The notes below the pieces were generated by a model. That model was not told the DNA's origin. It made no database searches and saw only the letters and a list, made by a program, of their open reading frames with translations. Below, one piece after another: positions 10,475 to 49,472 of a stretch of DNA of 64,000 nt. Each line of letters opens with the position of its first letter. The stretch's first letter is position 1. Source of the stretch: Nitrospirota bacterium (lineage in GTDB: Bacteria; Nitrospirota; Thermodesulfovibrionia; UBA6902); assembly GCA_016234115.1 (NCBI GenBank), contig JACRHD010000017.1, positions 811 to 64,810 on the forward strand, given 5' to 3'. The position numbers were made by a program, and so were the translations under genes.

Positions 10475-10551
10475 GCCACCGTAGCTCAACCTGGCAGAGC
10501 AATGCATTCGTAATGCATAGGTTAGGGGTTCGACTCCCCTCGGTGGCTCCA
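10475..10551 (+). tRNA. tRNA-Thr (anticodon CGU)
   Basis: Acceptor stem GCCACCG/CGGTGGC. Anticodon stem ATGCA/TGCAT with loop TTCGTAA, anticodon CGT. T-arm GGGGTTCGACTCCCC. Genomically encoded CCA at 10549-10551. Confidence 0.85.
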
Positions 10552-12590: not shown

Positions 12591-13622
12591 ATGACAGAAA
12601 TAAATCCCTTCAATAAGTTAAAGGTAATATCTCATTCTGAAAAAATACGCCAGTTGCTGAGCGGGAAGATACCGTCGCCGGTACGGGTGGTTCTGGAGCC
12701 TACAAATTTATGCAACCATAATTGCGTCTTCTGTTTTTACTCGAACTTCAGAGATGACAACAAGGTGTATTTATCCAGGGAGAAGCTCTTTGAATTAGCT
12801 GAAGATTTTAAAAAAATGGGGGTCAAATCGGTGTCCCTGGTAGGGGGGGGAGAGCCGATGATTCATCCCGCCATTTATGATCTGATACGCTGGTTCCGCG
12901 AGAATAATATTTTAATATCCATTACAACCAACGGATCGACCCTTAAGGACTCTGAAATTGACACTATTGTGCGCGCTTCAACCTATATCAGGATCAGTTT
13001 GAATGCGGCCTCCGAGCAAACGCATAATGCGGTCAATGCGCCCAGGAGCAGCCACTTTGCGCGCATCATAAGCAATATAGAGAAACTGAGGAGTCACAGG
13101 GACAAGATCGGCGCCAATATGCTTGTCGGAATTAAAAACGCAATATTCGAGAAAAATTTCCACGAAATCGAAAACATGGTCGCCCTGGGAGAGGAATTGA
13201 AAGTTGACTACATCATGTTTGCCGCTGTAGTGGGAGAATCCCCAGCTTCCAGGAAGATACTTGATGATGCTAAAGTCATAATTGAAGAAATGAAGAAAAA
13301 GACCCGTGTCCTGTTGTTTCATTCATTTTATAAAAAACCCCTGAAAACGCCAAAATGCATATCCAATCCCCTGATCGGCACCGTGTCGGCAAACGGCGAC
13401 ATGTACCTTTGCGGGTTTATGGACCACTCCGACGGACGTTTCAGGATCGGAAATATAAATGAGAATCGTTTTATCGATCTTTGGGGAAGTGAAAAACATT
13501 ATGAAGTTTACAGGTCCCAGGACCCCGAGTACTGCGCCAGGTACACCTGTAAAATGAAAGAATATGATAACGTCATAAGGGACGTCTTTCTCGAAGATAA
13601 AATGCATATCTACTCAATATGA
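12591..13622 (+). CDS. Radical SAM enzyme with C-terminal SPASM/twitch domain
   Basis: CX3CX2C motif (NLCNHNCVFC) and a glycine-rich SAM motif (VGGGEP). A C-terminal Cys cluster is present (CISNPLIGTVSANGDMYLCGF…YCARYTC). The track ORF starts at 12513, but the Met at 12591 (MTEINPF…) better fits the AAGGAG upstream; the start is uncertain. Confidence 0.75.
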   Translation: MTEINPFNKLKVISHSEKIRQLLSGKIPSPVRVVLEPTNLCNHNCVFCFYSNFRDDNKVYLSREKLFELAEDFKKMGVKSVSLVGGGEPMIHPAIYDLIRWFRENNILISITTNGSTLKDSEIDTIVRASTYIRISLNAASEQTHNAVNAPRSSHFARIISNIEKLRSHRDKIGANMLVGIKNAIFEKNFHEIENMVALGEELKVDYIMFAAVVGESPASRKILDDAKVIIEEMKKKTRVLLFHSFYKKPLKTPKCISNPLIGTVSANGDMYLCGFMDHSDGRFRIGNINENRFIDLWGSEKHYEVYRSQDPEYCARYTCKMKEYDNVIRDVFLEDKMHIYSI

Positions 13623-14569
13623 AAGGCGTCGGTTTCGGAATTATCGGATTCGGCAGGCAGGGACTCAGGCTTGCCGAACATATCAGAAAAGACATTCAAC
13701 CCGGAAAATTGATAGCCGTATGCCGCCGTTCAGCCGACGGCTGTGATTATTCCAGGAAACACGGCATCAAGTTCTATTCCAATTATCACGATCTGCTGAA
13801 AGACAAAGATATCCATGCGGTAATTATTACCACGCCGAGCAATTTACACGGCCTTCATGCCCTGGACGTCTTAAAGTCCGGCAGGCATGTGCTCATAGAT
13901 AAACCGATTGCTTCAAGTTTTGAAGAAGGACTGGAAATCCAGTCTTACGCAAAGAAGGAAAAGCTTACAGTGGCGGTCAATTTCCCCCTCAGGGTAAATC
14001 CCGTCACGGAGATATTGAGACGCAACCTGCCCGCTATTGGAAGATTAATAAAAATCCATGTGATGATAAGCCACGGCCCCGCGCGCAGCGCCTGGCAGAG
14101 CGATATGAAGCTCTCCAACGGGGGGGTCATACTCGACCTCGGCAGCCATTATTTCGACCTCATTTCTTTTTTAACGGGATGCCGGCCGGCAATAATTGAA
14201 ACTGCACGTAGTGAAAAGATGGAAAATGAGGACAGCGGATTTATCGATCTCACTTATGAGAATTTCAGTGTTTCCGTGGTATTGCTCAGAAACCAGAAAT
14301 TCAGGAAAAACATCATTACCTGCGCCGGAGATAAAGGGTTTTTGTTTGCGGATTATTCCGGAAGAGAAGTCATAATTTCCAATAACCATGAAGTCAATAA
14401 GATACAGTGTCCGGCAAGTTATGATTTTGAAAAGATACTTAATAATCTGGTCAGGGCGATCAATGAAAAAGATGCTGTTATTGCGGACGCGGAAGCCGGG
14501 CTCGGGTCTTTGCGGACTGTTCTTTCCGTATATAAGGCAATCAGGACCGGAACGCCGGCAAGATTATGA
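13619..14569 (+). CDS. Gfo/Idh/MocA-family NAD(P)-dependent oxidoreductase (sugar dehydrogenase-like)
   Basis: N-terminal Rossmann motif GFGIIGFGRQG and the conserved …IDKP… motif of the Gfo/Idh/MocA family. Its start overlaps the stop of the radical SAM gene (ATGA), indicating translational coupling. Confidence 0.75.
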   Translation: MKGVGFGIIGFGRQGLRLAEHIRKDIQPGKLIAVCRRSADGCDYSRKHGIKFYSNYHDLLKDKDIHAVIITTPSNLHGLHALDVLKSGRHVLIDKPIASSFEEGLEIQSYAKKEKLTVAVNFPLRVNPVTEILRRNLPAIGRLIKIHVMISHGPARSAWQSDMKLSNGGVILDLGSHYFDLISFLTGCRPAIIETARSEKMENEDSGFIDLTYENFSVSVVLLRNQKFRKNIITCAGDKGFLFADYSGREVIISNNHEVNKIQCPASYDFEKILNNLVRAINEKDAVIADAEAGLGSLRTVLSVYKAIRTGTPARL

Positions 14570-17341: not shown

Positions 17342-18739
17342 CTACGCGGCTTTCCACATCCTTTTTACTCTTCTGAGAATGTTCTTCAGATGTTCCAGGG
17401 ATTGTATTTCCGCCAACAGACCGAATATGATCTTCGGTCTTAAATAAAATTCGAGGTATGCCCTCCGCAGTAATTTCTGAAGTTCATCTTCCGTGAGTTT
17501 TTCCGGAACATAGTTTATCTGGTTCAGAACTACGCCGCTGAGGTTCCTGATATTCAATTTACCTTCCCTCTTCAGGGTTTCCGTCATTTCACTTCCTGGA
17601 ACGGGAATCCAGATAGTAAACTGCGCCCTCTTTAACGGAAGTTCTTTGGCGAGTTTTATGGTCTTTAAAATATCCTCTCTTTCTTCAGCAGGATATCCCA
17701 TTATGAAGAAGCCCGTCATTCTGATCCTGGTAACGCGCGCGACAAGTTCAACCTTTTCCCTTACCTTTTCAAGGTCCTGCCGTCTTTTCATATGGTCCAC
17801 AATCCGCTGGGAGCCCGACTCAATCGCCATCCCGATGGAATAGCATCCGGCCCTTTCCAGGAGCTTTAGGAGTTCTTCGTCAAGGGAATCGACCCTGACG
17901 CCGTTCGGGAAGGTGATATTCAATTTCCATCCCCTGTTTATTATTTCATTGCAGACCCCCTCGGCCAGAGAACGTTTGGATGTAAAACAGTCATCGATAA
18001 TCTGGTACTCCCTCACCCCATATTTATTATAAAGGAGGTCGATTTCCTCTATTATTGATTCTTTGCTTCTCGCTCTCATTCCTCTTCCCATTATCAGCTT
18101 GTTGGCGCAGTACGTGCACTGATGCGGACAACCTCGCGAACAGGAGATGGTGGCAAGAGGAAAAGATTTCACAAAGGCCCCTATCGGCGCATTGGGATAT
18201 TCATTTGGATCAATCAGGTCCCAACCGGGCAGACCTAAAGCTGTTACGTCCTTGATCGGAGACAATTCGTTTCGCATGATTTCGCCGTTCTCTCTCCAGA
18301 TCAGATGATGAATGTCCTTATAGTCACATTCTTCCGAGCCGTTTATTTTTTTGAGAAGTTTGGGCAGGCCCAATTCCGCCTCTCCTCTGAATGCAAAATC
18401 AGCGTCAAGCTGATTTAAGGCGTTTTCAGAGTCGCCCGAAACATGCGCCCCTCCTATTATCCTTATGACCTCAGGATTAAGGGACTTGACCAGCTTTAAA
18501 GCCTCCTGAGCTTCCTCCACGCTGCATGTATATACCTGCAGTCCTACTACGTCGTAATCCAGCCGTTTCAGTCTCTCTTCAAGCTTCTTTCCGGTCATGT
18601 CTTTCTTCATGCCGTCCCAGATATCGACTTCAAAGCCGTTTCTTCTAAGGGAGGTCGCCAAATAGCCAAGGCCGAGATTGGGGGTCGCGGCAAACATGCC
18701 TCTCTCGCTGGTGATAGGGTTCGTTAAAAGGACCTTCAT
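17342..18739 (-). CDS. B12-binding (class B) radical SAM enzyme
   Basis: The N-terminal cobalamin-binding-like domain is followed by a radical SAM core with CSRGCPHQCTYC (CX3CX2C). This is the typical size (465 aa) and architecture of B12-radical SAM methyltransferases. Confidence 0.75.
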   Translation of the reverse strand: MKVLLTNPITSERGMFAATPNLGLGYLATSLRRNGFEVDIWDGMKKDMTGKKLEERLKRLDYDVVGLQVYTCSVEEAQEALKLVKSLNPEVIRIIGGAHVSGDSENALNQLDADFAFRGEAELGLPKLLKKINGSEECDYKDIHHLIWRENGEIMRNELSPIKDVTALGLPGWDLIDPNEYPNAPIGAFVKSFPLATISCSRGCPHQCTYCANKLIMGRGMRARSKESIIEEIDLLYNKYGVREYQIIDDCFTSKRSLAEGVCNEIINRGWKLNITFPNGVRVDSLDEELLKLLERAGCYSIGMAIESGSQRIVDHMKRRQDLEKVREKVELVARVTRIRMTGFFIMGYPAEEREDILKTIKLAKELPLKRAQFTIWIPVPGSEMTETLKREGKLNIRNLSGVVLNQINYVPEKLTEDELQKLLRRAYLEFYLRPKIIFGLLAEIQSLEHLKNILRRVKRMWKAA

Positions 18740-22760: not shown

Positions 22761-22833
22761 TTTTCGGCTCCTTGACAGTTTGCGGGTTATTTAATGTTTG
22801 TAATGATCAGGCAGCGCATTTTTTTGAAATATG

Positions 22834-23823: not shown

Positions 23824-23838
23824 GTTGTCCCTTTCTTT

Positions 23839-27857: not shown

Positions 27858-28676
27858 ATGTTTAATTATTTAATCTGGATATTAATAATAATTCTGTATA
27901 GTCCGGTATTCTATTCTCTCTATCAGTTTCGTTGGGAAAAACTGGATTACACTCATGCATATTTTATTCTGCCGATATCCTTATGGCTGACATGGCGCAA
28001 GCGAAGACAACTGGTTGAACTCTTTAGTGAGGGAAGTAATAACTTCGGATTTGTCAGTTTCGCCATCCTGCTTATAGGACTTCTGATGTTTTTTTTCGGC
28101 TGGCGAGAGGATTATTTATTTATAACTGCGCTTTCCCTGATACCTGTTTTATGCGGCACGATAATCTACCTTTACGGAATAAAAACAGTCAGGGCTTTGT
28201 CTTTTCCCCTTTTCTATCTCCTGCTTCTTGTGCCTCCTCCCATGGGGGTACTGGACAGCGTTACACTCCCCATGCGCCACGGCATTTCCGTTGCAACAGA
28301 AAAAATATTGCTGCTTTTAGATTATCCTATTTCAAGAGCGGGATTGGAATTGACAATTGGTTATAATGTTATTTTTATGGGAGCCCCATGCAGCGGATTT
28401 CGCTCGCTTGTTACTATGTTTTCCCTTGTACTCGTTTATGTATATTTTGTTAAGGGTTCTATCTCTAAAAAAATCATTCTGACCTCATCGATAATACCGA
28501 TGGCGCTGATAGGAAACCTTATCAGGGTCATAACCCTGTGCCTCATCACTTTTTATTTTGGCGAAGAAGTCGGACAGGGTTTCTTTCATAACTTCAGCGG
28601 GATAGTAATATTCATCATTACAATCCTTGGTCTGTTAGGCGTTGAATCGCTTTTCGAGGCCCCAAGAAATAATTGA
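27858..28676 (+). CDS. Exosortase (EpsH/XrtA-like transpeptidase)
   Basis: 272 aa with ~8 TM helices. It carries the exosortase active-site signature …GAPCSGFRSLV… (Cys nucleophile in C-S-G-x-R-S) and the downstream conserved N-x-x-R (GNLIRVITL). Confidence 0.7.
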   Translation: MFNYLIWILIIILYSPVFYSLYQFRWEKLDYTHAYFILPISLWLTWRKRRQLVELFSEGSNNFGFVSFAILLIGLLMFFFGWREDYLFITALSLIPVLCGTIIYLYGIKTVRALSFPLFYLLLLVPPPMGVLDSVTLPMRHGISVATEKILLLLDYPISRAGLELTIGYNVIFMGAPCSGFRSLVTMFSLVLVYVYFVKGSISKKIILTSSIIPMALIGNLIRVITLCLITFYFGEEVGQGFFHNFSGIVIFIITILGLLGVESLFEAPRNN

Positions 28677-29335
28677 GCGGAGACAACTTATACATATTGT
28701 GGGGCAGGAATAACAGAATGATAATATTATGTTCCTATTTCACATTACTCTTAATCATCATATTGTTTTACCTGTTTAATCCATTTCACAATAAATGCAC
28801 AAAAGGCAGTTGTATTAACGGGTATGGCGTCTATGAACATAATAGCGGCATGTCTTATGCCGGTGAATGGAAAAACGGCAGAAGGCATGGAACAGGGACA
28901 TTGACGTCACCCGGCAATTACAAACTTTCGGGTGAATGGAAAAATAATAGAATACATGGAACCGGAACCTTAACTTATCCGTACGGCTATAAATATTCCG
29001 GCAGTTGGATGAATGGAAACAGACATGGAAGAGGGAATATCATTACCCCGGACGGTAAAATTGTTTTTACAGGTGATTGGGAACATGATAAAAGGAACGG
29101 ATATGGAACGGCAATCTATCGAGACGGCGCTCAATATAAGGGGGAATGGAAATACAATATTCCGCACGGCGCAGGGACATTTATTGATCCCTCCGGATAT
29201 AAATATGAGGGCCAATGGAAAGAGGGTAAAAAGCATGGCAGCGGGAAAGAAACTTTTCCAAACGGCTACACATATACCGGCAAATGGGAGCGCGGGGAAA
29301 GAGTTGAAATTAACAATATAATTTTTGCCCCCTGA
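28673..29335 (+). CDS. MORN-repeat protein with N-terminal membrane anchor
   Basis: An N-terminal TM helix is followed by ~7 tandem MORN units (Y-x-G-x-W-x-x-G-x-x-H-G-x-G: YAGEWKNGRRHGTGT, LSGEWKNNRIHGTGT, YSGSWMNGNRHGRGN …). Its ATG overlaps the exosortase stop (ATGA). Confidence 0.75.
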   Translation: MSGDNLYILWGRNNRMIILCSYFTLLLIIILFYLFNPFHNKCTKGSCINGYGVYEHNSGMSYAGEWKNGRRHGTGTLTSPGNYKLSGEWKNNRIHGTGTLTYPYGYKYSGSWMNGNRHGRGNIITPDGKIVFTGDWEHDKRNGYGTAIYRDGAQYKGEWKYNIPHGAGTFIDPSGYKYEGQWKEGKKHGSGKETFPNGYTYTGKWERGERVEINNIIFAP

Positions 29336-29470
29336 GAGCAATTCAATCAATCGGTTTTGACAATTGATTTTGAAAACGGCTTACTTGCGGGCTAATATTT
29401 TTTTAATCAAAAGACAAGTCACAACAACTGGTAGCTTGTCAAAGGCGGCAACATATGAGGGAATGCAATT

Positions 29471-30490
29471 GTGATAACAATTCTGAAGCATAATGAAGCC
29501 ACCGTTACAGTAGAAGAATTGCCCTCCGGCAAAAACAGGATCATTATTGAGCCCTTGAACCAGAATTCATTTATACGCTGCAAAACATGGGAGACTGTTT
29601 ACCCGCTAAATCTGATAGAGAAGATATTAACGATAAAAGGGCCCAATTGGTTATGTGATGAAATCATGCGTGATGAATCGCCGGATTATGTGCAAGATAG
29701 TTTGAAATATAATTTATTGGGCCATGTAAGTGGTATTTCTTTTTCGAATAAAAAGATTCTGGACTTTGGCTGCGGCAGCGGTTCATCAACGATGATTCTT
29801 GGCAGAATGTTTCCCCATACCGAAATAGTCGGCATAGAACTTGATGATAATTTGTTATCGGTAGCCAGGCAACGATCTACATATTATGGTTTCGATAACA
29901 GAATAAAACTGTTAAAATCACCTGATGCCGATAATTTACCAAAAGATCTCGGAAAATTTGATTACGTTGTATTGCACGCAGTCTTTGAGCATTTTCTGCC
30001 GGGTGAACGAAAAATGCTCTTGCCGAAGATATGGAATCTCTTATACCCGGAAGGGGTCTTGTTTATAGAAGAAACGCCATACAGATATTTCCCAATCGAA
30101 CTTCATACTACACGGCTGCCAATAATTAATTATTTGCCTAATAAAATTGCATTTTACTTTGCTAAGAAATTTTCCAAAAGCAACATAGCAAATGATAGCT
30201 GGAATTCTTTGTTAAGAAAAGGTATAAGGGGTGGTAGTGTTCGTGAGATCCTCGGTATTTTAAACAAATGTAAAGAAAAACCGTTCTTGCTAAAACCTTC
30301 TCTATTAGGAGCTACGGATAGAATCGATCTGTGGTACATGCGATCACGTAAAAGTAGTTTTATTAAGAAAATGTACTTTTTGCTGACTAAGCTATTAAAG
30401 ATGACGACCGGCTTTATCTTTTTGCCGGATTTAAGCTTGGCAATCAAGAAATTGCCGGAAAAAACAGCCATGCGCAGCAGTGAAATATAA
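29471..30490 (+). CDS. Class I SAM-dependent methyltransferase
   Basis: Motif I LDFGCGSGSSTMIL and an acidic motif II (IVGIELDD). It is 339 aa and sits between the MORN gene and the EpsI-like gene. Confidence 0.7.
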   Translation: MITILKHNEATVTVEELPSGKNRIIIEPLNQNSFIRCKTWETVYPLNLIEKILTIKGPNWLCDEIMRDESPDYVQDSLKYNLLGHVSGISFSNKKILDFGCGSGSSTMILGRMFPHTEIVGIELDDNLLSVARQRSTYYGFDNRIKLLKSPDADNLPKDLGKFDYVVLHAVFEHFLPGERKMLLPKIWNLLYPEGVLFIEETPYRYFPIELHTTRLPIINYLPNKIAFYFAKKFSKSNIANDSWNSLLRKGIRGGSVREILGILNKCKEKPFLLKPSLLGATDRIDLWYMRSRKSSFIKKMYFLLTKLLKMTTGFIFLPDLSLAIKKLPEKTAMRSSEI

Positions 30491-30551: not shown

Positions 30552-31214
30552 ATGACAAAAAAAAGATACATAGTTGTGATTATTTTAATTTCACTGACTC
30601 TTATTGCAAGTTATTCCATTCCAAGAAAACGTTATGCCGGAACAAACATTATTGCCGAATTGAAAATTCCCCGTTCGATTAATAATTGGTCCGGGGTAGA
30701 TGTTACCGACAGACTTGAGATCGGGGTTACGGAAGAAATATATAATTTTATAGGTGATGCAATTGCTTACGAGTATACAAATAAAGAAGGCAGGAAACTT
30801 CTTCTGATTATTCTGGACGCAGGCAATTTTCATCATCCCAATGTCTGTTTTACCAGCGCCGGGTTTGAAATCCGTGAACTTGAAGACACTGAATTTGCTT
30901 CTCCCTCCAATGCCTTCAAAGCCCATACGCTCCTCACAAAAAAGGGGAATGATAATTATTTAAGTTTTTACTGGATAAGCATTGATAATAAAATAGTCCA
31001 TGAGTGGATCGACCAGAAGATAAAACAGTTATATTTTTCCATGTTTAACAAGGGAAGAGTGGGCCTGATGATACGAATCGATATTCCCGCTAATGAAGCA
31101 GATATAGATCAGTCAATTCTGCTTGCAAAGCAATTTATCAGTGAGATAGGCCCGTTACTTGAGACCAGGCAGAGGAGCTTCATTTTTGGTATTGATTCCG
31201 GGGGCCAACTATAA
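30552..31214 (+). CDS. EpsI-like exosortase-associated protein (N-terminal TM anchor + periplasmic domain)
   Basis: 220 aa with a single N-terminal TM helix (IVVIILISLTLIASYSI) and a mixed alpha/beta domain. Position in the exosortase operon and size match the EpsI family. The family call is by context, not by a recognised motif. Confidence 0.45.
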   Translation: MTKKRYIVVIILISLTLIASYSIPRKRYAGTNIIAELKIPRSINNWSGVDVTDRLEIGVTEEIYNFIGDAIAYEYTNKEGRKLLLIILDAGNFHHPNVCFTSAGFEIRELEDTEFASPSNAFKAHTLLTKKGNDNYLSFYWISIDNKIVHEWIDQKIKQLYFSMFNKGRVGLMIRIDIPANEADIDQSILLAKQFISEIGPLLETRQRSFIFGIDSGGQL

Positions 31215-32218
31215 TGAAGAAAGCAAAAACGTTACATGAAAGGTTTGGTTATTTAAAAAGACATTTCTATTCTTTCGCCCCTCATCTGACTATCCGGAAA
31301 CTCTCAAACCTTCTCCTCAATGAGATTGAGATGCGTTTATCTGTCAGTAATCCAAGGAGTCTGCCTCCTTATATAAAGGTGGAACCCAGTATTTTATGCC
31401 AACTACGATGCAAAGGATGCATACAAAGGGACCCGGAATTTAAGAAGCAGTATATCGGAACCAAACCTATCAATCTCGGTGAATTTGAAAAAATCATAGA
31501 TCCTCTCGCCGAAACACTCCTGGGTATCAGCCTGAGTTTTTTCGGCGAGCCGCTTCTGAATAAAGATATTGTCCAGATGATCAAATTCGCTCATGGTAAA
31601 AATATTGCTGTCGGTTTCCCCACAAATTTCTCGTTTAATTTCACCGACGATCAAATAAATCAGCTTGCCGGGTCAGGACTTGATTCTTTATCGGTTTCAT
31701 TAGACGGGGCTTCTGAAGAAACATACCTGAGATATCGTGTGGGCGGTAATTTCAATCAGGTGCTCAAAAATGTTAAATCATTATCGGTAGCCAAAAAGAA
31801 ACTCGGACTTCGGCGTCCGAGAATCATCTGGAAATTCGTTATATTCGATTACAATGAGCATGAAGTCGACATAGTCAGAAACACTTATGCTTCAAGGGGA
31901 TTCGATTCCTACGAGTTTGTCTATAACGTTTCGAGTGACTACTCGAAAAGTCAGACACAATCATACAGAAAAGAACTCTGGAAAAATAAAAAACCCTGCT
32001 ACTGGCTCTGGAATACAATGATCATAAGATGGGACGGAAATATTCACCCTTGCTGCCGAACGGAACAATTCAATTTGGGAAATGCCTTAAAGGAGAATAT
32101 CAAAGACGTCTGGCGGGGGAGAAAGTATTACGCATTAAGAAGAGGGTTTACTAAAAAAGATTACGGGGAGAAATTACATCCGAACTGCAGAAAGTGCATG
32201 GAATCAAATTATTTTTGA
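31214..32218 (+). CDS. Radical SAM enzyme with SPASM domain
   Basis: CX3CX2C (ILCQLRCKGC) and a C-terminal Cys cluster (CYWLWNTMIIRWDGNIHPCC…NCRKC). Its start overlaps the EpsI-like stop by 1 nt. Confidence 0.75.
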   Translation: MKKAKTLHERFGYLKRHFYSFAPHLTIRKLSNLLLNEIEMRLSVSNPRSLPPYIKVEPSILCQLRCKGCIQRDPEFKKQYIGTKPINLGEFEKIIDPLAETLLGISLSFFGEPLLNKDIVQMIKFAHGKNIAVGFPTNFSFNFTDDQINQLAGSGLDSLSVSLDGASEETYLRYRVGGNFNQVLKNVKSLSVAKKKLGLRRPRIIWKFVIFDYNEHEVDIVRNTYASRGFDSYEFVYNVSSDYSKSQTQSYRKELWKNKKPCYWLWNTMIIRWDGNIHPCCRTEQFNLGNALKENIKDVWRGRKYYALRRGFTKKDYGEKLHPNCRKCMESNYF

Positions 32219-32253
32219 ATTTGGTTAATCAGTAGATAGAAACACGCAATAAA

Positions 32254-33366
32254 TTACAGGGTTGATTTTCCTGTGATGATTTTATTGTAAACCTGGAATG
32301 TCTTATAAGCAATATCTTCCCAGTTGTATTTATTCTTAATTATATTCAACTGGGCCTCTCTCTCTTGTACCGGGTTATCTATAAATTCTTTTATTTTTAT
32401 TCTTAGAGCAGTCAGGTCGCCGGTCTTGAAATATCCGGTCTCATTCAGCTCAACACTTTTATTAGCCGGGATATCACTGGCAATGCAATTCAATCCATAA
32501 CTCATGGCTTCAAGCAACACAATAGGCAATCCCTCATAATATGAAGGCAAGACAAACAGACCCGCATGAGTATAGATTTCACGCAAAGGCTTGCCTTTTA
32601 AAAAACCGGTCAATACCACGTTCCTATTTTCTCCCGCTTTGAGTTTAAATTGCCTGCTGTAATTGTCCTCATGATCGGCATCTCCTACTATAGCAAGCTT
32701 CCATTGTTTAAAATGACCCTCGTTAAACGCGGCCAGTAAATCATCAAAACCCTTTTCCGGAACGAATCGCCCCACGCTGAGAATATACTTTCCTTTTTGC
32801 AGACCCATTTTTGTAATATACTCATCGTTGTCGGCAGGATCAGGTATGTCAACTCCATTAGGTATAACTGTGGCCTCCCGGCCATATTTTTTTCTGATAT
32901 CATCAGCTATGTTCCCTGAAATAGCTATAATCTCGTGAGCGAAAACAACTCCGACAAGTTCACATAACTGTAAAAATATTTTTGCCGGTAAACTCCATTT
33001 CTTTCTTTTATAATCCGGCCCGTGATTAGTGATAATAACTTTCATTCCCAGTGCCCGCGCAACCGGCACAAGGAGAGACGGCCCCACTGCGTGAATATGC
33101 ATCAAATCCGGCTGAATCCGGCGAGCTTTCAATACGCTTCTAAACGTGTGCACGAGGGCTTCGAATAATTTACTGCGGGGACAGCTCAGAGGTATTAGAG
33201 AAACGCCCCTGTATTGATCAGCTTTGTCGGAAATATAAGGTTTCCTTGTGAAGACCGTAACCTCGCAACCCAATTTCGCGAGATAAGGATACAGATGTTC
33301 ACAGTGATTCTCAACCCCTCCCTGAACGCCCGGGAATCCGCGAGTGCCTGCGACTGCTATTTTCAT
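32254..33366 (-). CDS. Family-4 (group 1) glycosyltransferase
   Basis: GT-B C-terminal E-x7-E motif (YYEGLPIVLLEAMSYGLNCIAS). Length is 370 aa. Confidence 0.8.
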   Translation of the reverse strand: MKIAVAGTRGFPGVQGGVENHCEHLYPYLAKLGCEVTVFTRKPYISDKADQYRGVSLIPLSCPRSKLFEALVHTFRSVLKARRIQPDLMHIHAVGPSLLVPVARALGMKVIITNHGPDYKRKKWSLPAKIFLQLCELVGVVFAHEIIAISGNIADDIRKKYGREATVIPNGVDIPDPADNDEYITKMGLQKGKYILSVGRFVPEKGFDDLLAAFNEGHFKQWKLAIVGDADHEDNYSRQFKLKAGENRNVVLTGFLKGKPLREIYTHAGLFVLPSYYEGLPIVLLEAMSYGLNCIASDIPANKSVELNETGYFKTGDLTALRIKIKEFIDNPVQEREAQLNIIKNKYNWEDIAYKTFQVYNKIITGKSTL

Positions 33367-33391
33367 AGGTAATGTCTATGCGGCAGAGTTT

Positions 33392-34429
33392 CTAAGAGAT
33401 ATCGGATATCTTCTCACTTTTAACATCCGGGAAGCACAGGTTCGGTTCCATGTTAAGCAATACACGGATTTTATTCTTCATAATCCATTTGACCGGGATC
33501 CCCTTATGCTTCTTCATCACAGGGGCGGCGCTGCCGACCATCCAGCACTGCTTGTCACACGTTTTTACAATGTCCCTGACCCGTTGCGCCTGTCCGCTGT
33601 TCCATATCTCATCAAATGACTCATCTTTTAAATTTCCCATCGGGACTTTTATATTCATCCCGTTACAGGCAAGGATATCGCCGCTGGGGTCCAAGAAACA
33701 CGATTCTTCGCCCATCTCGCACTTCAGAAATCTTTTACCGCCATATATATAATTCATCAGACCGTAATTGAAGTATGCCCTGAACCATTTCTTAACGGAC
33801 CTCGACTTTAGAAGTTCAGCAATAAGCTTTGCAAATTCATTACAGACAGCATCCTTGTTTTCTATTCGATTATCCAGTTTATGAAAATAATGTGAATTAT
33901 GAAGTGTAGCTGTAGCAAATTCATACCCGAGCGCATCGGAAAGCTCATACAACGGCAGAAGGTCCTTGCAATTCATGTCCTGTACCGTCATACCGAACCC
34001 TATGTCCTTCATGCCCATCTTTCTCAATGAAAGAAGCGTCCTTAGTGTTCTGTCGAAGCCTCTCGGTATTTTTCTGATGGTATCGTTGCTTTCCTGAAGT
34101 CCCTCTGTGCTTATTCTGATTCCGAGATCCGGATATTTCTCACATAACTTAATTATCCTCTCAGTGAAAAATCCGTTTGTACTTATAACAATTCGATCAG
34201 TTTTAGGACGAACCGCTTCGATAATTTCCTCTATATCCTGTCTTATGAACGGCTCCCCGCCGGTTATATTTATAAATCTCAATCCGGAGGGTATTTTCTC
34301 GATATCTTTAATCGTTATCTCATCCGCGGCTTTTGTAGGATAATGCCAGACATCGCACATATTACATTTCGCATTACATCTGTATGTAAGGATGACACAT
34401 ATTTCTTTTGGATATGATATCATAGGCAT
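33392..34429 (-). CDS. Radical SAM enzyme with SPASM domain
   Basis: CX3CX2C (YRCNAKCNMC), GGEP SAM motif, and a C-terminal SPASM Cys cluster (CEMGEESCFLDPSGDILACNGMN…CDKQC). Confidence 0.75.
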   Translation of the reverse strand: MPMISYPKEICVILTYRCNAKCNMCDVWHYPTKAADEITIKDIEKIPSGLRFINITGGEPFIRQDIEEIIEAVRPKTDRIVISTNGFFTERIIKLCEKYPDLGIRISTEGLQESNDTIRKIPRGFDRTLRTLLSLRKMGMKDIGFGMTVQDMNCKDLLPLYELSDALGYEFATATLHNSHYFHKLDNRIENKDAVCNEFAKLIAELLKSRSVKKWFRAYFNYGLMNYIYGGKRFLKCEMGEESCFLDPSGDILACNGMNIKVPMGNLKDESFDEIWNSGQAQRVRDIVKTCDKQCWMVGSAAPVMKKHKGIPVKWIMKNKIRVLLNMEPNLCFPDVKSEKISDIS

Positions 34430-34578
34430 GAGATACCGGAACTAATGATATAACTCAATGATTTATTGTTTAAATATACCATATTTTACGATGACATATA
34501 TATAGCTCTTGAAGATGTTTTTGAATCATGCCTCTCGCAGTATATCTGTGAATAATCCGGGTAGCTGACTATATATCG

Positions 34579-35661
34579 CTAAAATTCTATTTTCTTCTTG
34601 GACATCTTTCTAAAGGCAGAATACAATTCTTTCATGGAACGCTTGGTCTGGCAGGTAGTCAAACATAATCTTTTACACTTCAGAATAATATCGCGACCTT
34701 TTTCTGCATCATCTGAATGCCAGATTTCCTCAGGAGAGTTTTTTGTCAAATTGCCGGCCCATATGTTAATGTTGGGACACAGATAAACATCGCCTTCGGG
34801 ATGGACGTGGAAGTTACGGACCCCCACAAGACATCTCCCGCGCGGTACCTCGTCGGTCGTGGCCCCTTTGAAATAATCCTTCCAGCCTGCGATATCGCTC
34901 TCTGCTGATAAAACAGGATAACCTTCCTTCTTCATATCCAAAAGCCGCCTCGATACCTTCTCAACTTTCTCAATATCCCTGATCCAGAAATCCTCCCACT
35001 GCGAGCCGCCGAATTTGAATAACGGTTGAAAATTAACACCCTCTAGTTTTTTATCTTTAGCAAATTTTACAATCCCTTCAAGTTCATCGATATTCACGTT
35101 CAACACTGTCGGTTTCAGTATTATCCGGATTTTCTTATTCTGTCTCTTCATTTCGTAAAGCATGCTTTCCAGGTTTTCCATTACCTTTACAAAAAGGCCC
35201 CTGGTCCCTCTGCTGTAATCATGAGTCTCCGGTTTTATCCCATCAAGAGATATATTTACATTGAAAGGAGATGCGCCGACAAACTTCTGCATTCCTCCAT
35301 GCGGGGTCAGCCCCAAATTAGTGGTGATTCCATATGACAATCCGATCGAAGCGCAGTGCTCGAATATCCCGACGACATCTTTTCTGATAAAAGGCTCTCC
35401 TCCGGAAAATTGGACATGCGCATGTCTATGCCACTTCTTCAGTTGCGACAGCCATCTGGTCCATTCGACAGTCGTCATTTCAGAATGGTCCTTACGTCTC
35501 CAATGATTACACATCAGACATTTTGCATTGCATTTGTACGTAAGCATGGTGGGAATAGTTGCAGGCCTGCAAAGATTGATCCCGGTACCAAGGTAAAGAT
35601 TGCTCGATATCACATTTTTCAGATACCCGACGCTGTAGTTTATCAACTTACTGTCTACCAT
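34579..35661 (-). CDS. Radical SAM enzyme with SPASM domain
   Basis: CX3CX2C (YKCNAKCLMC), GGEP, and C-terminal CLVGVRNFHVHPEGDVYLCPN…CKRLCLTTC. It is a paralog of 33392-34429. Confidence 0.75.
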   Translation of the reverse strand: MVDSKLINYSVGYLKNVISSNLYLGTGINLCRPATIPTMLTYKCNAKCLMCNHWRRKDHSEMTTVEWTRWLSQLKKWHRHAHVQFSGGEPFIRKDVVGIFEHCASIGLSYGITTNLGLTPHGGMQKFVGASPFNVNISLDGIKPETHDYSRGTRGLFVKVMENLESMLYEMKRQNKKIRIILKPTVLNVNIDELEGIVKFAKDKKLEGVNFQPLFKFGGSQWEDFWIRDIEKVEKVSRRLLDMKKEGYPVLSAESDIAGWKDYFKGATTDEVPRGRCLVGVRNFHVHPEGDVYLCPNINIWAGNLTKNSPEEIWHSDDAEKGRDIILKCKRLCLTTCQTKRSMKELYSAFRKMSKKKIEF

Positions 35662-35753: not shown

Positions 35754-37151
35754 TCAGGCGGATGCCTCTGCCCACGATGCATTTGTAAGTGCTTTATCTT
35801 CGCAGCCTAATGCCATTCCGATAAAGCCGGTGTAAACAAGAATCATTGATGAAAGGTTTATTCCGTTGCTGGCAGAATACATTATTAATACTGTCGTGCA
35901 AATTATCAACCCGGAATATAAACACTTCATTTCATATGATGTCGCCTGATGTCTTGCCGTATCAAGGATGACAGAAATGAAAATCAGGAAAACAATAAAG
36001 AGACCTGTTCCCATGACTCCGAGCTCCGCCAGAATCTGGGGCCAAAATTGATCTATGCCTCCCCATTTTTCAGCATATGTTTTGGCTATTTCAAAAAAAG
36101 AATACTCACTATAGACATGTGATTTTGTCTTTATTGAAACAACCCCCCCGTACATGCCGGGACCAACGCCCCAGAAAGGTTTGTCACTCCATATCTCTAT
36201 CCCTTTGGTCTTGGCATACTGCCTGAAAGAAATGTATGTGGCATCCTCAATCTTCGTTTCCTTGACGTCACCGGTTAATTCCATTTCAGGCAAATCGGGT
36301 TTCCATACATTTTTCAGTTCCATATCACTTGTATATAAAAATAAATTAACAATCATAATGACAATTGCCGCAGGCGTCGACAAAATCAGGACCCATCTCC
36401 TGCTTTTAAATATCTGCATCCCGGCAAACACCACAAGACCTATATAAGCTATTCTTGATCCGGTAAATATCACAGCAATCACAAGGACCAGCAGGACTGC
36501 GGGATTGACTTTTTCCTTAATATTTTTATAAATAACAATGACAAGCACCAGAAAGAAACTGAAAATGTTGGGGTTGAACATAAGTGAAGGAGTTCTGTAT
36601 AGGCCGAATCTCCATGATCCTTCCGGCATGAGATTCTGTGCGAGAACATATATGCTCTTGTCAAGTATGTCTTTATGTAAAACATAATATGAAGTCATTG
36701 CCCATACTTCCTGAAAAATAGCTATTGCCGCAAGGAACACCGTAACAATCAACAAAGATTTAAATGCCTTTTTCATATCCATAATATTGTTACAGAAAGC
36801 GGCATAAATGAATATGGCAAGGAAATTTTTCATATAATCAAATATCCCGAGTGCCGTTACCTTCAGAGGATTCCCGTTGATTAATCCGGAAACGGTTCCT
36901 GCAAAACACAAAAGCAGAATTGAGAGAAGCAGTATATTAAATGATTGAGCAAAACTCCTTTTCTCTTTCATAAGCTTAACAAGCGACAACGGTAAAATTA
37001 TTATGATTGTTATTTCGTCAAGGTATTTCAGGTACGTTATTAAGTCCGGAATATCATAATTCCACAAGGATACAGTTTCGGTTATCGTTTGCTGAAACGG
37101 CATGAAAAATAGAAGTCCGATCAGCCACCTTCTTATCAGTTTGTCGTACAT
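35754..37151 (-). CDS. Wzy-type polymerase / O-antigen-ligase-like polytopic membrane protein
   Basis: 465 aa with ~11 TM helices and one large periplasmic loop. It sits in the GT-rich operon, the typical position for Wzy. Confidence 0.55.
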   Translation of the reverse strand: MYDKLIRRWLIGLLFFMPFQQTITETVSLWNYDIPDLITYLKYLDEITIIIILPLSLVKLMKEKRSFAQSFNILLLSILLLCFAGTVSGLINGNPLKVTALGIFDYMKNFLAIFIYAAFCNNIMDMKKAFKSLLIVTVFLAAIAIFQEVWAMTSYYVLHKDILDKSIYVLAQNLMPEGSWRFGLYRTPSLMFNPNIFSFFLVLVIVIYKNIKEKVNPAVLLVLVIAVIFTGSRIAYIGLVVFAGMQIFKSRRWVLILSTPAAIVIMIVNLFLYTSDMELKNVWKPDLPEMELTGDVKETKIEDATYISFRQYAKTKGIEIWSDKPFWGVGPGMYGGVVSIKTKSHVYSEYSFFEIAKTYAEKWGGIDQFWPQILAELGVMGTGLFIVFLIFISVILDTARHQATSYEMKCLYSGLIICTTVLIMYSASNGINLSSMILVYTGFIGMALGCEDKALTNASWAEASA

Positions 37152-37163
37152 AATACTCCGAGG

Positions 37164-38471
37164 TTACTTATTGTGAGCTCTCTTGTGCATAGCCAAATCG
37201 TATATCTGCAGCAATTTATCGTAGTGCCGCTGACTATTCAGCTCTCGCTCCGCATAGAGCCGCGCATTCCTTCCCATTTCCGAGAGTCTCGCAGGGCTGT
37301 CAATTATATACCGGAGCTTTTGTGCGAGGTCTTCAGCGTCGCCGCTTTCAAAAAGCAAGCCCGTTCGGCCGTTTTCAATCAATTCGGGGATACCTCCTAT
37401 TCTTGCTCCGATCACGGGCATACCCAAGGCAAAAGACTCTATGACAGATAATGGATTATTCTCATACCACTCTGACGGAATCACTACCGCCCTGCTTCTT
37501 TTAATTTCCCCCCACATACGATCGTGATTCATAAAACCCAGGAAGATTACGTTATCTATTCCTTTTTCCTTTACCGCCTCTTCCAGACGTTTCCTGAGCG
37601 GACCATCTCCGATGATCTTGAATATTATTTTATTATTCCCGGTTCCCGAAGATAGTTCCGCCGCCTTAATCAGGGTCCATAGGCCCTTTTCCTCTGAAAG
37701 GCGGCCAAAATAAACGACGGCCCTTTCCTGTTGTTCTCTCTCTTCGTCGGTCACGGGGCTGAAATCGTTTCTATTCTCGATATCGATAAAATTGGGGAGG
37801 TATACTATCTCTTTCCTGAATCCCATCTCCCTGAATTTGTCCCTGAGGAATAAACTTGGAGAAATAAAAATATCGACATTATCATAAATATCCAAAAACT
37901 TTTGGTGCAAATACATTTCAAGCGTTGAAAGCAGGGTCTTGGAGATCGAATTTTTTACGCATCTTTTTTTCAGCGCCATAAAATATTTCCCGCCGGCACA
38001 GTCTTCGCAGCGCGTTCCATTGGCCCACATGGAATATGAAGTACAAACCATCTTGTAGTCGTGAAGAGTCATTACCACGGGAATATTCCTTTTTCTCAAT
38101 GCCGGCAGAATTGACGGCGAAATATGATGGTAAATATTATGTAAATGAGCAATATCTATTGCCTTGTATTCTTGCAGCATTCTGGAAAGCAGGTCCCTCG
38201 CCTTGAAAGAATAGAGAATTCTTCCCGATATCCTTAACTGCTCAAGCAAATTATAATTGCTCTTTGCCAGCTCCACATTGGGCAGGAAGAAAGGTAAAAA
38301 ATATTTAATATCTCCGTAATTCAGATTCTTATGATGATGCATTGAGAAAAATGCTGATTTATGACCAGCTTTTTCCAAAAGAACGGCTGTCCGGAAATAA
38401 GCGGTTTCCGCTCCCGCCCTCATATAATGAAATTTGTTAATATGCAGGACTGTCAGTTTACGTTTATTCAT
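37164..38471 (-). CDS. Family-4 (group 1) glycosyltransferase
   Basis: E-x7-E motif (EWYENNPLSVIESFALGMPVIG). Length is 435 aa. Confidence 0.8.
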   Translation of the reverse strand: MNKRKLTVLHINKFHYMRAGAETAYFRTAVLLEKAGHKSAFFSMHHHKNLNYGDIKYFLPFFLPNVELAKSNYNLLEQLRISGRILYSFKARDLLSRMLQEYKAIDIAHLHNIYHHISPSILPALRKRNIPVVMTLHDYKMVCTSYSMWANGTRCEDCAGGKYFMALKKRCVKNSISKTLLSTLEMYLHQKFLDIYDNVDIFISPSLFLRDKFREMGFRKEIVYLPNFIDIENRNDFSPVTDEEREQQERAVVYFGRLSEEKGLWTLIKAAELSSGTGNNKIIFKIIGDGPLRKRLEEAVKEKGIDNVIFLGFMNHDRMWGEIKRSRAVVIPSEWYENNPLSVIESFALGMPVIGARIGGIPELIENGRTGLLFESGDAEDLAQKLRYIIDSPARLSEMGRNARLYAERELNSQRHYDKLLQIYDLAMHKRAHNK

Positions 38472-49354: not shown

Positions 49355-49472
49355 TTGCGCGATAATTTCCCCCGCGTATCGCCATCCCGCCTTTTTAGCT
49401 ATGATTGATAAATTCTTTTTGTCTTCCACCCGTCATACTCCCGACTCATACCGTGATTTTCAGTTTCGCTGA
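49355..49472. repeat. 118-bp direct repeat, copy B
   Basis: It contains the true 3' end and stop of the Wzy-like gene (…MSREYDGWKTKRIYQS*). Past the repeat, a decayed remnant of the Wzx 5' end (SIIAKKAGWRYAGEIIAQLYKAVQPH…*) runs into the 49235-49398 spacer. Confidence 0.85.

What the first reader, a model, noticed from the sequence alone, without database searches (positions are those of the whole stretch)
31214..35661. Three paralogous SPASM radical SAM enzymes embedded among GT4 glycosyltransferases, with a fourth SPASM radical SAM and a B12-radical SAM in the upstream glycan module
There are four ~340-370-aa proteins (12591-13622, 31214-32218, 33392-34429, 34579-35661). Each has an N-terminal CX3CX2C, a GGEP SAM motif and a C-terminal auxiliary Fe-S (SPASM/twitch) Cys cluster. 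None sits beside an obvious precursor-peptide ORF. All are flanked by glycosyltransferases, nucleotide-sugar enzymes or, for 12591, a Gfo/Idh/MocA sugar dehydrogenase that is translationally coupled to it. The only well-known SPASM/twitch enzyme acting on a carbohydrate is the BtrN-type dehydrogenase. Four such paralogs plus a class-B B12-radical SAM (17342-18739, a candidate C-methyltransferase) in one glycan locus suggest a largely undescribed set of radical sugar modifications (oxidation, epimerisation, deoxygenation or C-methylation) on this polysaccharide. Alternatively they could install cross-links on a protein partner.
Basis: partly seen in the sequence, partly recalled or inferred. 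Interest (0 to 1): 0.8.

Follow-up and report, generated by a model that had tools for sequence, protein, structure and literature searches.

The report
Radical SAM enzymes wired to glycosyltransferases
Four unrelated-looking iron-sulfur "radical SAM" enzymes sit inside a surface-polysaccharide gene cluster of a Nitrospirae bacterium, and one of them belongs to a very widespread, very conserved and uncharacterised family that travels with (and is sometimes fused to) glycosyltransferases, pointing to an undescribed radical step in bacterial polysaccharide synthesis.

Summary
All four ORFs carry Radical_SAM and SPASM Pfam domains, and 17342-18739 is a B12-binding radical SAM. Three corrections apply.

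- The four are only 20-26% identical, so they are four distinct families, not recent paralogs.
- Each family conserves only 4-5 C-terminal Cys (Cx17C...Cx2-4C). That fits a BtrN-like "twitch" with one auxiliary cluster, not a full 7-Cys SPASM.
- One of them has FGEP rather than GGEP.

The main result concerns 33392-34429 ("C"). Its family is 57-82% identical from Nitrospirota to Planctomycetota, Omnitrophota, Nanoarchaeota and Lachnospiraceae.

- In 75 related loci a GT4 gene is directly adjacent in 53 and within three genes in 68.
- One GT4 subfamily (window 37164-38471) is present in 49 of 55 loci with enough flanking sequence.
- Natural fusions exist: rSAM-GT4/DUF1972, GT4-rSAM and GT2-rSAM.
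- No conserved small ORF and no RRE domain was found.

D (34579-35661) lies in glycan loci in 5 of 5 contexts. A (12591-13622) keeps a 4-nt overlap with a Gfo/Idh/MocA gene in all four close relatives. B (31214-32218) is glycan-linked in only 4 of 8 contexts.

No curated family or paper describes these proteins. The substrates and the chemistry remain inferred. Interest is moderate to high.

The parts
33392..34429 (-). rSAM 'C': twitch-type radical SAM and core of the finding. It belongs to a very conserved, widespread family linked to glycosyltransferases.
34579..35661 (-). rSAM 'D': twitch-type radical SAM from a small family, 26% identical to C.
   Evidence: Pfam. 149 homologs, about 10 of them above 50% identity. 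Conserved Cys: C44, C48, C51; C277-x17-C295; C329-x3-C333-x3-C337. Contexts L006, L007, L131 and L132 are all glycan loci. D is adjacent to C in L007 and L131.
31214..32218 (+). rSAM 'B': twitch-type radical SAM whose start overlaps the EpsI stop codon.
   Evidence: Pfam. TAATG overlap. Family of about 336 homologs at 42-60% identity. Invariant Cys: C62, C66, C69; C262-x17-C280, C281; C325-x2-C328. AF2 pLDDT 93; Foldseek hits SuiB, BtrN, SkfB, BlsE. Contexts are mixed.
32254..33366 (-). GT4 glycosyltransferase (DUF1972 type, 'GT4-sub1'), 25 nt downstream of C.
   Evidence: Pfam. An ortholog of at least 45% identity lies immediately downstream of C in 23 loci and within 3 genes in 29. The same domain is fused to a C-like rSAM in P0372.
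37164..38471 (-). GT4 glycosyltransferase ('GT4-sub0'), the most constant partner of C.
   Evidence: Pfam and NCBIfam. The subfamily is present in 49 of 55 C loci with enough flank, lies within 3 genes upstream in 41, and is immediately upstream in 33 of 76.
35754..37151 (-). Wzy_C / O-antigen-ligase-like polymerase, upstream of D.
   Evidence: Pfam Wzy_C. The order Wzy_C - (MTase) - D - C recurs in L006, L007 and L131.
27858..28676 (+). Exosortase (EpsH family, XrtB/XrtV-like).
   Evidence: Pfam Exosortase_EpsH E 4.5e-53. TIGR02602 scores above its cut-off. An Xrt-EpsI pair convergent with C-GT4 occurs in 9 other loci.
30552..31214 (+). EpsI (exosortase-associated protein), translationally coupled to B.
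   Evidence: Pfam DUF3485/EpsI; TIGR02914 scores above its cut-off.
29471..30490 (+). Class I SAM methyltransferase lying between the exosortase and EpsI.
   Evidence: Pfam methyltransferase domains.
12591..13622 (+). rSAM 'A': twitch-type radical SAM (the longest ORF starts at GTG 12513).
   Evidence: Pfam. Close homologs (77-84% identity) align from residue 1 of the ATG-12591 form. C-terminal Cx17C...Cx4C.
13619..14569 (+). Gfo/Idh/MocA NAD(P)-oxidoreductase whose ATGA start overlaps the stop of A.
   Evidence: Pfam and NCBIfam; best hit UDP-GlcNAc 3-dehydrogenase, below its cut-off. Overlap seen. The A+Gfo pair with a 4-nt overlap is conserved in L089, L090, L091 and L093.
17342..18739 (-). 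Class B (B12-binding) radical SAM enzyme in the upstream heptose/GT-C module.
   Evidence: Pfam B12-binding + Radical_SAM. The best NCBIfam hits (BchE, HpnJ, P-methyltransferases) are all far below their cut-offs.

Best explanation
The window is an exosortase-linked surface-polysaccharide island from an anaerobic Nitrospirae MAG. Its four radical SAM proteins are separate twitch-type enzymes: one SAM-binding [4Fe-4S] cluster plus, by inference, one auxiliary cluster. They most likely act on sugars of the polysaccharide pathway, not on peptides.

C (33392-34429) is the best-supported case. It works as a unit with glycosyltransferases, mainly the GT4 subfamily of 37164-38471, and here also the DUF1972-type GT4 at 32254-33366.

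C evolves far more slowly than its neighbours: 60% identity versus 32-34% between this window and the Bacillota loci. I therefore infer that its substrate is an invariant activated sugar (an NDP-sugar or the polyprenyl-linked first residues), not the variable glycan.

The inferred mechanism has three steps:
1. Reductive cleavage of SAM.
2. Abstraction of a sugar C-H hydrogen by the 5'-deoxyadenosyl radical.
3. Resolution of the sugar radical, either through the auxiliary cluster (oxidation to a keto-sugar, BtrN/SpeY-like) or by decarboxylation or epimerisation (BlsE- or HygY-like).

The product is then transferred or extended by the partner GT4.

D probably performs a second radical step in the same cassette (Wzy - D - C - GT4). 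A plus its coupled Gfo/Idh/MocA partner would form a two-enzyme radical/NAD(P)H sugar-tailoring pair, analogous to AprD4/AprD3 deoxygenation. B is an accessory twitch enzyme recruited here into the exosortase/EpsI operon.

Shown: domain content, Cys patterns, gene linkage, gene fusions, absence of precursor ORFs. Inferred: substrate class, cluster count, reaction type.
For: - Domains.
- Family C is 57-82% identical across at least 8 phyla and is embedded co-directionally in glycan loci. Of 75 loci, a GT4 is adjacent in 53 and within 3 genes in 68. 137 of 145 flanking genes lie on the same strand. Median intergenic gaps are 25 and 15 nt.
- GT4-sub0 is present in 49 of 55 loci.
- Other neighbours are GT2, GT11, GT-D, GH88, pyruvyl- and sulfotransferases and flippases.
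- Fusion proteins: rSAM-GT4/DUF1972 (P0372), GT4-rSAM (P0428, P0500), GT2-rSAM (P0406, P0502) and rSAM-GHL15 (P0488).
- The same GT - rSAM - GT4 order is annotated in Segatella copri DSM 18205.
- No small ORF is shared by more than 2 loci within 2 kb of C, and none near B homologs.
- No N-terminal RRE: the rSAM motif of C starts at residue 18.
- Only 4-5 conserved auxiliary Cys, with BtrN-like Cx17C spacing.
- D lies in glycan loci in 5 of 5 contexts.
- The A+Gfo overlap is conserved in 4 of 4 close relatives, next to SDR epimerases and B12-rSAMs.
- Precedent for a rSAM plus NADPH-reductase pair in sugar deoxygenation: PMC5461906.
Against: - There is no biochemical evidence. No protein reaches the cut-off of any curated NCBIfam model, including BlsE (47-50 bits against 400).
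- Structural neighbours mix sugar enzymes (BlsE, BtrN, DesII) with peptide maturases (SkfB, SuiB, CteB, anSME) at near-equal scores. Fold alone therefore does not decide the substrate class.
- B is stand-alone among unrelated genes in 4 of 8 contexts.
- The fusions come from predicted metagenome proteins and could include merged gene calls.
- High identity across phyla could partly reflect horizontal transfer rather than constraint.
- Alkaline-phosphatase-superfamily genes recur near C or D (L006, L014, L132). That leaves some room for a protein client.
Confidence: 0.7

Rival explanations
1. Peptide or protein maturases. One or more of the four enzymes install cross-links or oxidise a residue on a protein. 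Candidates are an exosortase (PEP-CTERM) substrate, or a neighbouring alkaline-phosphatase-superfamily enzyme matured in the way anSME matures sulfatases.
For: - SkfB, SuiB, CteB and anSME are among the top structural neighbours.
- Many weak NCBIfam hits are to RiPP maturases.
- B is translationally coupled to EpsI of a protein-sorting system.
- Sulfatase- or Phosphodiest-family genes lie in the window (47231-49234) and next to C or D in L006, L014 and L132.
Against: - No conserved small ORF lies near C in 76 loci or near B in 5 loci.
- There is no RRE domain, and only 4-5 auxiliary Cys.
- All RiPP and anSME equivalog scores are far below their cut-offs.
- The window 'sulfatase' has WTTPAT (a Thr nucleophile, no C/S-x-P-x-R) plus an N-terminal membrane domain. 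It is LtaS/EptA-like and needs no formylglycine.
- The L014 Phosphodiest protein has ASPVLW, not S-x-P-x-R.
- A regex scan found no PEP-CTERM-tailed ORF in the window.
- The GT fusions point to sugars.
Confidence: 0.1
2. The enzymes act on a non-sugar small molecule of the envelope pathway. Examples are the polyprenyl carrier, a lipid anchor, or a non-carbohydrate substituent (acyl, pyruvyl, phospho-alcohol) that is then attached to the glycan.
For: - Weak similarity to the lipid-modifying rSAMs Tes/GDGT-MAS and HpnH.
- The locus carries an AMP-ligase (44265-45596), an LPG_synthase_TM protein (14588-15544), LtaS/EptA-like and Phosphodiest enzymes, and methyltransferases.
- One C-like protein is fused to a methyltransferase (P0491).
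Against: - The only near-universal partners of C are GT4 glycosyltransferases.
- Most fusions are to GT4 or GT2.
- No lipid-synthesis gene is conserved next to C.
Confidence: 0.13
3. B (31214-32218) is not part of the glycan pathway. It would be a free-standing twitch rSAM with some other, housekeeping or island-borne role that happens to have landed downstream of EpsI in this genome.
For: - In L003/L004, L005, L129 and L130 it sits alone among unrelated genes, often near toxin-antitoxin pairs.
- In 9 other Xrt-EpsI / C-GT4 loci there is no B.
Against: - The stop/start overlap with EpsI implies co-translation.
- Glycan neighbours occur in Thiomargarita (sulfotransferases, GT4, GT2) and in L133 (GT4 - B - C-like - GT4/DUF1972). 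In L134 a UDP-GlcNAc 2-epimerase lies 96 nt downstream.
Confidence: 0.3

Closest known systems
BtrN (2-deoxy-scyllo-inosamine dehydrogenase, twitch radical SAM; PDB 4m7t)
   Same: Radical SAM core plus a truncated SPASM ('twitch') domain. All four window proteins share the same Cx17C...CxxC-type spacing of four auxiliary Cys. BtrN acts on a carbohydrate-like substrate. It is a top-3 Foldseek hit for B, with TM 0.66-0.71 over BtrN.
BlsE (cytosylglucuronate decarboxylase, twitch radical SAM; PDB 7vob)
AprD4/AprD3 (radical SAM diol dehydratase plus NADPH reductase, C3' deoxygenation of paromamine)
   Same: It is a two-gene logic: a radical SAM enzyme paired with an NAD(P)H oxidoreductase to tailor a sugar (PMC5461906). 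This resembles the conserved, translationally coupled pair of A and Gfo/Idh/MocA.
   Different: AprD4 is not a twitch enzyme and is not detectably related to A; its NCBIfam model hits the window's B12-type rSAM instead, weakly. I did not verify which protein family AprD3 belongs to. The analogy is functional only.
SPASM/twitch RiPP maturases and anSME (SkfB, SuiB, CteB, AlbA, PqqE, anSMEcpe)
   Same: The same superfamily and overall fold. The SPASM Pfam domain is detected.
   Different: There is no precursor peptide, no RRE and no client sulfatase motif. The 7-Cys SPASM signature is incomplete. All equivalog scores are far below their cut-offs.
Exosortase (EpsH)/EpsI-associated EPS loci (PEP-CTERM systems)
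   Same: The window has an exosortase, EpsI, stp2-like GT4s, a polysaccharide deacetylase, an AMP-ligase, Wzy-like proteins and flippases.
   Different: The exosortase scores below the XrtA, XrtB and XrtV cut-offs. No PEP-CTERM protein was found in the window. Two literature searches found no description of radical SAM genes in such loci.

Membership tests
Radical SAM superfamily (PF04055) | CX3CX2C cluster motif near the N-terminus, and a Pfam score above the gathering threshold. | tested here: met
   All four proteins and the B12-type protein score above the gathering threshold. The motif Cys are invariant across families B and C and 91-100% conserved in D.
Radical SAM superfamily (PF04055) | GGEP-type SAM-binding motif. 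| tested here: met
   GGEP in A, C and D. B has FGEP, with G-E-P invariant in its family.
SPASM subfamily (two auxiliary [4Fe-4S] clusters) | PF13186 domain hit. | tested here: met
   E 4e-8 to 4e-14, above the gathering threshold in all four.
SPASM subfamily (two auxiliary [4Fe-4S] clusters) | Full 7-Cys signature CX9-15GX4C...CX2CX5CX3C...C. | tested here: not met
   Only 4 C-terminal Cys (conserved across family C; counted in the single window copy for A) or 5 conserved (B, D).
Twitch radical SAM enzymes (one auxiliary cluster; BtrN, BlsE, SpeY, SkfB, MoaA) | Truncated SPASM domain with about 4 Cys able to ligate one cluster. | tested here: met
   Cx17C followed by Cx2C (B), Cx3C (C), Cx3Cx3C (D) or Cx4C (A). 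These Cys are invariant in the family alignments. The closest folds are BlsE, SkfB and BtrN.
Twitch radical SAM enzymes (one auxiliary cluster; BtrN, BlsE, SpeY, SkfB, MoaA) | Actual binding of one auxiliary Fe-S cluster. | not testable with these tools
   Needs Fe/S analysis, EPR or Moessbauer spectroscopy on purified protein.
RiPP radical SAM/SPASM maturases | Cognate precursor peptide encoded nearby. | tested here: not met
   No small ORF is shared by more than 2 loci within 2 kb of C in 76 loci. None is shared among 5 B loci. The ORFs in the window gaps are unique to the window.
RiPP radical SAM/SPASM maturases | N-terminal RRE/PqqD-like peptide-binding domain, or a curated family score. 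| tested here: not met
   No extra Pfam domain. The rSAM motif starts at residue 18 (C), 44 (D), 62 (B) and about 41 (A). All NCBIfam maturase models score far below their cut-offs.
Anaerobic sulfatase-maturating enzyme (anSME, TIGR03942) | Family score, and a client sulfatase with the C/S-x-P-x-R motif. | tested here: not met
   The best score is 52.7 bits against a cut-off of 349 (A only). The window 'sulfatase' 47231-49234 has WTTPAT with a Thr nucleophile and no Arg.
BlsE-type cytosylglucuronate decarboxylase (TIGR04466) | Equivalog score at or above 400 bits. | tested here: not met
   47.0 bits (A) and 49.7 bits (D). There is structural resemblance only.
Class B cobalamin-dependent radical SAM (17342-18739) | N-terminal B12-binding domain plus a radical SAM domain. 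| tested here: met
   PF02310 E 4e-20 and PF04055 E 1.5e-21. No equivalog cut-off is reached, so the substrate is unknown.
Exosortase/EpsI polysaccharide system | Exosortase (8TM EpsH) plus an EpsI gene. | tested here: met
   PF09721 E 4.5e-53. TIGR02602 138 bits against a cut-off of 105.6. EpsI TIGR02914 47.6 bits against 42.8.
Exosortase/EpsI polysaccharide system | PEP-CTERM substrate proteins. | tested here: inconclusive
   A crude regex scan of the 64-kb window found none. Substrates are often encoded elsewhere in the genome.

The most novel reading that the evidence does not exclude
Family C (33392-34429) would define a previously unrecognised, phylogenetically very broad radical step in bacterial and archaeal surface-polysaccharide assembly. 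It would be carried out in physical complex with a dedicated GT4 glycosyltransferase, and in some genomes as a single fused polypeptide. The product would be a sugar or a linkage that no known nucleotide-sugar pathway makes: a new keto, deoxy, epimeric or C-branched residue, or a radical-formed cross-link within the glycan. D, A and B would add further radical steps, making this island a multi-step 'radical glycan tailoring' system.
Probability: 0.35. Interest if true: 0.85.

Novelty: new variant of a known kind. Interest (0 to 1): 0.62.

Why it matters
Known twitch radical SAM enzymes that act on carbohydrates (BtrN, BlsE, SpeY and relatives) come from antibiotic pathways. The searches here found no description of one as a routine component of cell-surface polysaccharide (EPS, CPS or O-antigen type) assembly.

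Family C has more than 7400 homologs. It is 57-82% identical from Nitrospirota to anammox Planctomycetota, Omnitrophota and gut Lachnospiraceae, and about 54% identical in Segatella. It is named only 'radical SAM protein' in RefSeq, and it is tied to one GT4 subfamily.

Working out its reaction would:
- add a new enzymatic step, and possibly a new sugar, to glycobiology;
- explain an unannotated gene in the capsule or EPS loci of abundant gut and environmental anaerobes;
- give a concrete, testable enzyme pair (rSAM + GT4) in cultured organisms.

Tried and rejected
- **Literature.** Nine full-text searches combined radical SAM with SPASM, polysaccharide, exosortase, capsule, O-antigen, twitch, nucleotide sugar, Kuenenia or sugar epimerase. 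None describes these families. The only incidental finding is uncharacterised rSAM genes in the C. jejuni HS:19 sulfation and capsule clusters (PMC8743553). Agl32, the archaeal GlcA C5-epimerase, is not described as a radical enzyme: the word 'radical' does not occur in that paper.
- **anSME idea.** The locus 'sulfatase' has a Thr nucleophile and lacks the FGly motif, so this was rejected.
- **Precursor peptides.** None is conserved.
- **PEP-CTERM clients in the window.** None found.
- **Defence-system role.** PADLOC gives only generic hits to viperin-like rSAM cores.
- **Riboswitches or ncRNA.** Rfam finds only a tRNA.
- **Invariant C96 of family C as an epimerase-type H-atom donor.** It lies inside helix 89-98 of the model. 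This is not an obvious active-site position, so I make no claim. C154 (80% conserved, in the loop after strand 143-148) is a weaker candidate.
- **Phylogeny against characterised enzymes.** Not done, because their sequences cannot be fetched here. NCBIfam cut-offs were used as a proxy.

Full report
**1. What is in the window**

The window matches a 73-kb contig of a Nitrospirae bacterium MAG. From about 10.5 kb to about 52 kb it is a mosaic of surface-polysaccharide modules.

- Upstream module: rSAM A (12591-13622), a Gfo/Idh/MocA oxidoreductase (13619-14569), an LPG_synthase_TM protein, a B12-binding rSAM (17342-18739), a GT-C/PMT_2 protein, a flippase, GmhA-like SIS, GHMP kinase and nucleotidyltransferase genes (heptose-type pathway), two SDR epimerases/dehydratases and a GT2.
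- A plus-strand operon: exosortase (27858-28676), MORN protein, methyltransferase, EpsI (30552-31214) and rSAM B (31214-32218).
- A long minus-strand operon, convergent with it...GT4, deacetylase, GT4, BNR/sortilin glycosylhydrolase-like protein, GT4 (37164-38471), Wzy_C (35754-37151), rSAM D (34579-35661), rSAM C (33392-34429) and GT4/DUF1972 (32254-33366).

**2. Check of the observation**

All four proteins score above the Pfam thresholds for Radical_SAM and SPASM, and 17342-18739 has B12-binding plus Radical_SAM domains. CX3CX2C is present in all four. The SAM motif is GGEP in A, C and D and FGEP in B. The ATGA overlap between A and Gfo, and the TAATG overlap between EpsI and B, are real.

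Three refinements matter.

- The four proteins share only 20-26% identity. They also have very different family sizes: more than 7400 homologs for C, about 336 for B and 149 for D. They are four distinct families, not duplicates.
- Family alignments show only 4-5 conserved C-terminal Cys, all beginning with a Cx17C pair:
  - C: C237-x17-C255...C291-x3-C295.
  - B: C262-x17-C280, C281...C325-x2-C328.
  - D: C277-x17-C295...C329-x3-C333-x3-C337.
  - A: Cx17C...Cx4C.
  This is the BtrN-like 'twitch' arrangement, enough for one auxiliary cluster. It is not the 7-Cys SPASM signature.
- None of the four reaches the cut-off of any curated NCBIfam model. That covers RiPP maturases, anSME, heme and PQQ enzymes, MoaA and BlsE.

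**3. Family C is the main result**

A scan of one genome per GTDB species found 342 relatives. The 80 loci kept are 57-82% identical to C. They come from Nitrospirota, Planctomycetota (Kuenenia, Scalindua), Omnitrophota, Flavobacteria, Deferribacteres, Thermodesulfobacteriota, Nanoarchaeota and many Bacillota (Lachnospiraceae, Desulfosporosinus). 36% of positions are at least 95% conserved.

I called and clustered ORFs in these loci. The results for 75 loci:

| Measure | Result |
|---|---|
| GT4 gene directly adjacent to C | 53 of 75 |
| GT4 gene within three genes | 68 of 75 |
| Flanking genes on the same strand | 137 of 145 |
| Median intergenic gaps | 25 and 15 nt |

Sub-clustering the GT4s shows one subfamily (window 37164-38471). 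It lies immediately upstream of C in 33 loci and is present in 49 of 55 loci with enough flanking sequence. A second subfamily (window 32254-33366, DUF1972 type) lies immediately downstream in 25.

The other neighbours are GT2, GT11, GT-D, GH88, pyruvyl- and sulfotransferases, flippases and ABC transporters. In nine other loci the C-GT4 pair is convergent with an exosortase-EpsI pair, as it is here.

C evolves far more slowly than its neighbours. In the Bacillota loci the median identity to the window is 60% for C, against 32% and 34% for the two GT4 partners.

An exhaustive phmmer search found multi-domain relatives:

- rSAM-GT4/DUF1972 (P0372, 717 aa). This reproduces the window's gene pair as a single protein.
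- GT4-rSAM (P0428, P0500).
- GT2-rSAM (P0406, P0502).
- rSAM-GHL15 (P0488).

Cultured carriers exist. In Segatella copri DSM 18205 the order is glycosyltransferase - 'radical SAM protein' - GT4. A second carrier is Pseudobutyrivibrio xylanivorans pNP95.

**4. Evidence against a peptide substrate**

- No small ORF within 2 kb of C is shared by more than two loci.
- None is shared near B homologs, and there is no conserved upstream DNA there either.
- There is no N-terminal RRE-type domain; the rSAM motif of C starts at residue 18.
- The only 'sulfatase' (47231-49234) is membrane-anchored. It has WTTPAT where sulfatases have C/S-x-P-x-R, so it is LtaS/EptA-like and needs no anSME.
- No PEP-CTERM-tailed ORF was found in the window.

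**5. Structures**

The AF2 models are confident: C has pLDDT 87 and B has pLDDT 93.

- Foldseek for B gives SuiB, BtrN (TM 0.66-0.71 over BtrN), SkfB, BlsE and DesII.

The fold confirms the twitch/SPASM class but does not decide the substrate.

**6. The other three enzymes**

- **D.** All five contexts are glycan loci. The order Wzy_C - (MTase) - D - C recurs in L006, L007 and L131.
- **A.** In all four close relatives with flanking sequence, A keeps the 4-nt overlap with the Gfo/Idh/MocA gene. SDR epimerases and sometimes B12-rSAMs lie nearby. More distant A-like genes also sit beside B12-rSAMs and SDRs.
- **B.** The evidence is mixed. Glycan neighbours occur in the window, in Thiomargarita (sulfotransferases, GT4, GT2), in L133 (GT4 - B - C-like rSAM - GT4/DUF1972) and in L134 (a UDP-GlcNAc 2-epimerase downstream). 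In four other genomes B stands alone.

**7. Mechanism (inferred)**

The most economical reading is that these are carbohydrate-tailoring twitch rSAM enzymes.

For C, the slow evolution, the dedicated GT4 partner and the GT fusions suggest an invariant activated sugar as substrate: an NDP-sugar or the first polyprenyl-linked residues. The chemistry would be H-atom abstraction by 5'-dA•. The sugar radical would then be resolved through the auxiliary cluster (oxidation) or by decarboxylation or epimerisation. The partner GT then uses the product.

A plus Gfo/Idh/MocA resembles the rSAM-plus-reductase logic of AprD4/AprD3 (PMC5461906). None of this chemistry was tested.

**8. Comparison with known systems, and verdict**

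The proteins are members of the radical SAM superfamily and of the twitch/SPASM structural class. They are not members of any curated functional family.

They are closest in kind to BtrN, BlsE and SpeY, but they occur in primary polysaccharide loci with GT partners. The literature searches found no description of that setting.

I rate this a new variant of a known kind.

Noticed in passing
window 47231-49234 (-): The Pfam 'Sulfatase' protein has an N-terminal multi-pass membrane region and WTTPATMSLMTG in place of the C/S-x-P-x-R formylglycine motif. This suggests an LtaS/EptA-like phospho-alcohol transferase that decorates the glycan. A similar 652-aa gene occurs in the related locus L006.
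   Followed up: partly
window 28673-30490 (+): A MORN-repeat protein and a class I methyltransferase are inserted between the exosortase and EpsI. In the nine other loci examined, those two genes are directly adjacent.
   Followed up: no
window 10475-10551 (+): A single tRNA-Thr(CGT) gene sits right at the edge of the upstream glycan module, next to a DksA-like gene (9560-10141). It could mark the boundary of an island.
   Followed up: no
window 972-3233, 35754-37151, 49399-50985 (all -); 20497-21996 and 45613-47145 (-): There are three Wzy_C-type polymerase/ligase-like proteins (one carrying C-terminal TPR repeats) and two Wzx-type flippases in 64 kb. The window therefore encodes at least two or three separate glycan assembly lines.
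   Followed up: no
window 38518-40659 (-): A 713-aa BNR/sortilin-Vps10 repeat protein lies inside the GT4 operon. It scores 160 bits against the F510_1955 family glycosylhydrolase model, just below the 175-bit cut-off.
   Followed up: no
window 22188-24567 (-) and 5134-7411 (-): GmhA-like SIS, GHMP kinase and nucleotidyltransferase genes suggest an NDP-heptose pathway. GDP-mannose 4,6-dehydratase and an epimerase/reductase suggest a GDP-6-deoxyhexose pathway. These are candidate substrates for the radical enzymes.
   Followed up: no
L010 and L011 (Kuenenia hertensis and a Planctomycetota MAG), about 6-8 kb upstream of the C homolog: The anammox loci carry a further, different 339-aa rSAM/SPASM gene together with several sulfotransferases in the same operon as the C-GT4 pair. 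The Thiomargarita locus L002 likewise links a B homolog to five sulfotransferases. An rSAM-sulfotransferase-GT association was also noted, uncharacterised, in C. jejuni HS:19 (PMC8743553).
   Followed up: partly
L006 11398-12939; L014 2127-3710; L132 6536-7983: Phosphodiest (PF01663, alkaline-phosphatase superfamily) genes lie directly next to C or D homologs in three loci. The L014 copy has ASPVLW, not an FGly motif.
   Followed up: partly
window 44265-45596 (-): A DVU_1553-like/PaaK-like AMP-dependent ligase (145 bits against a cut-off of 300) lies within the GT4 operon. It hints at an acyl or aryl substituent on the polysaccharide.
   Followed up: no
P0488 (1001 aa) and P0491 (617 aa): C-like rSAM domains are fused to a GHL15 glycosyl-hydrolase-like domain plus FG-GAP repeats (P0488) and to a methyltransferase (P0491). 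FG-GAP/UnbV_ASPIC proteins also occur in L002 and L006.
   Followed up: partly
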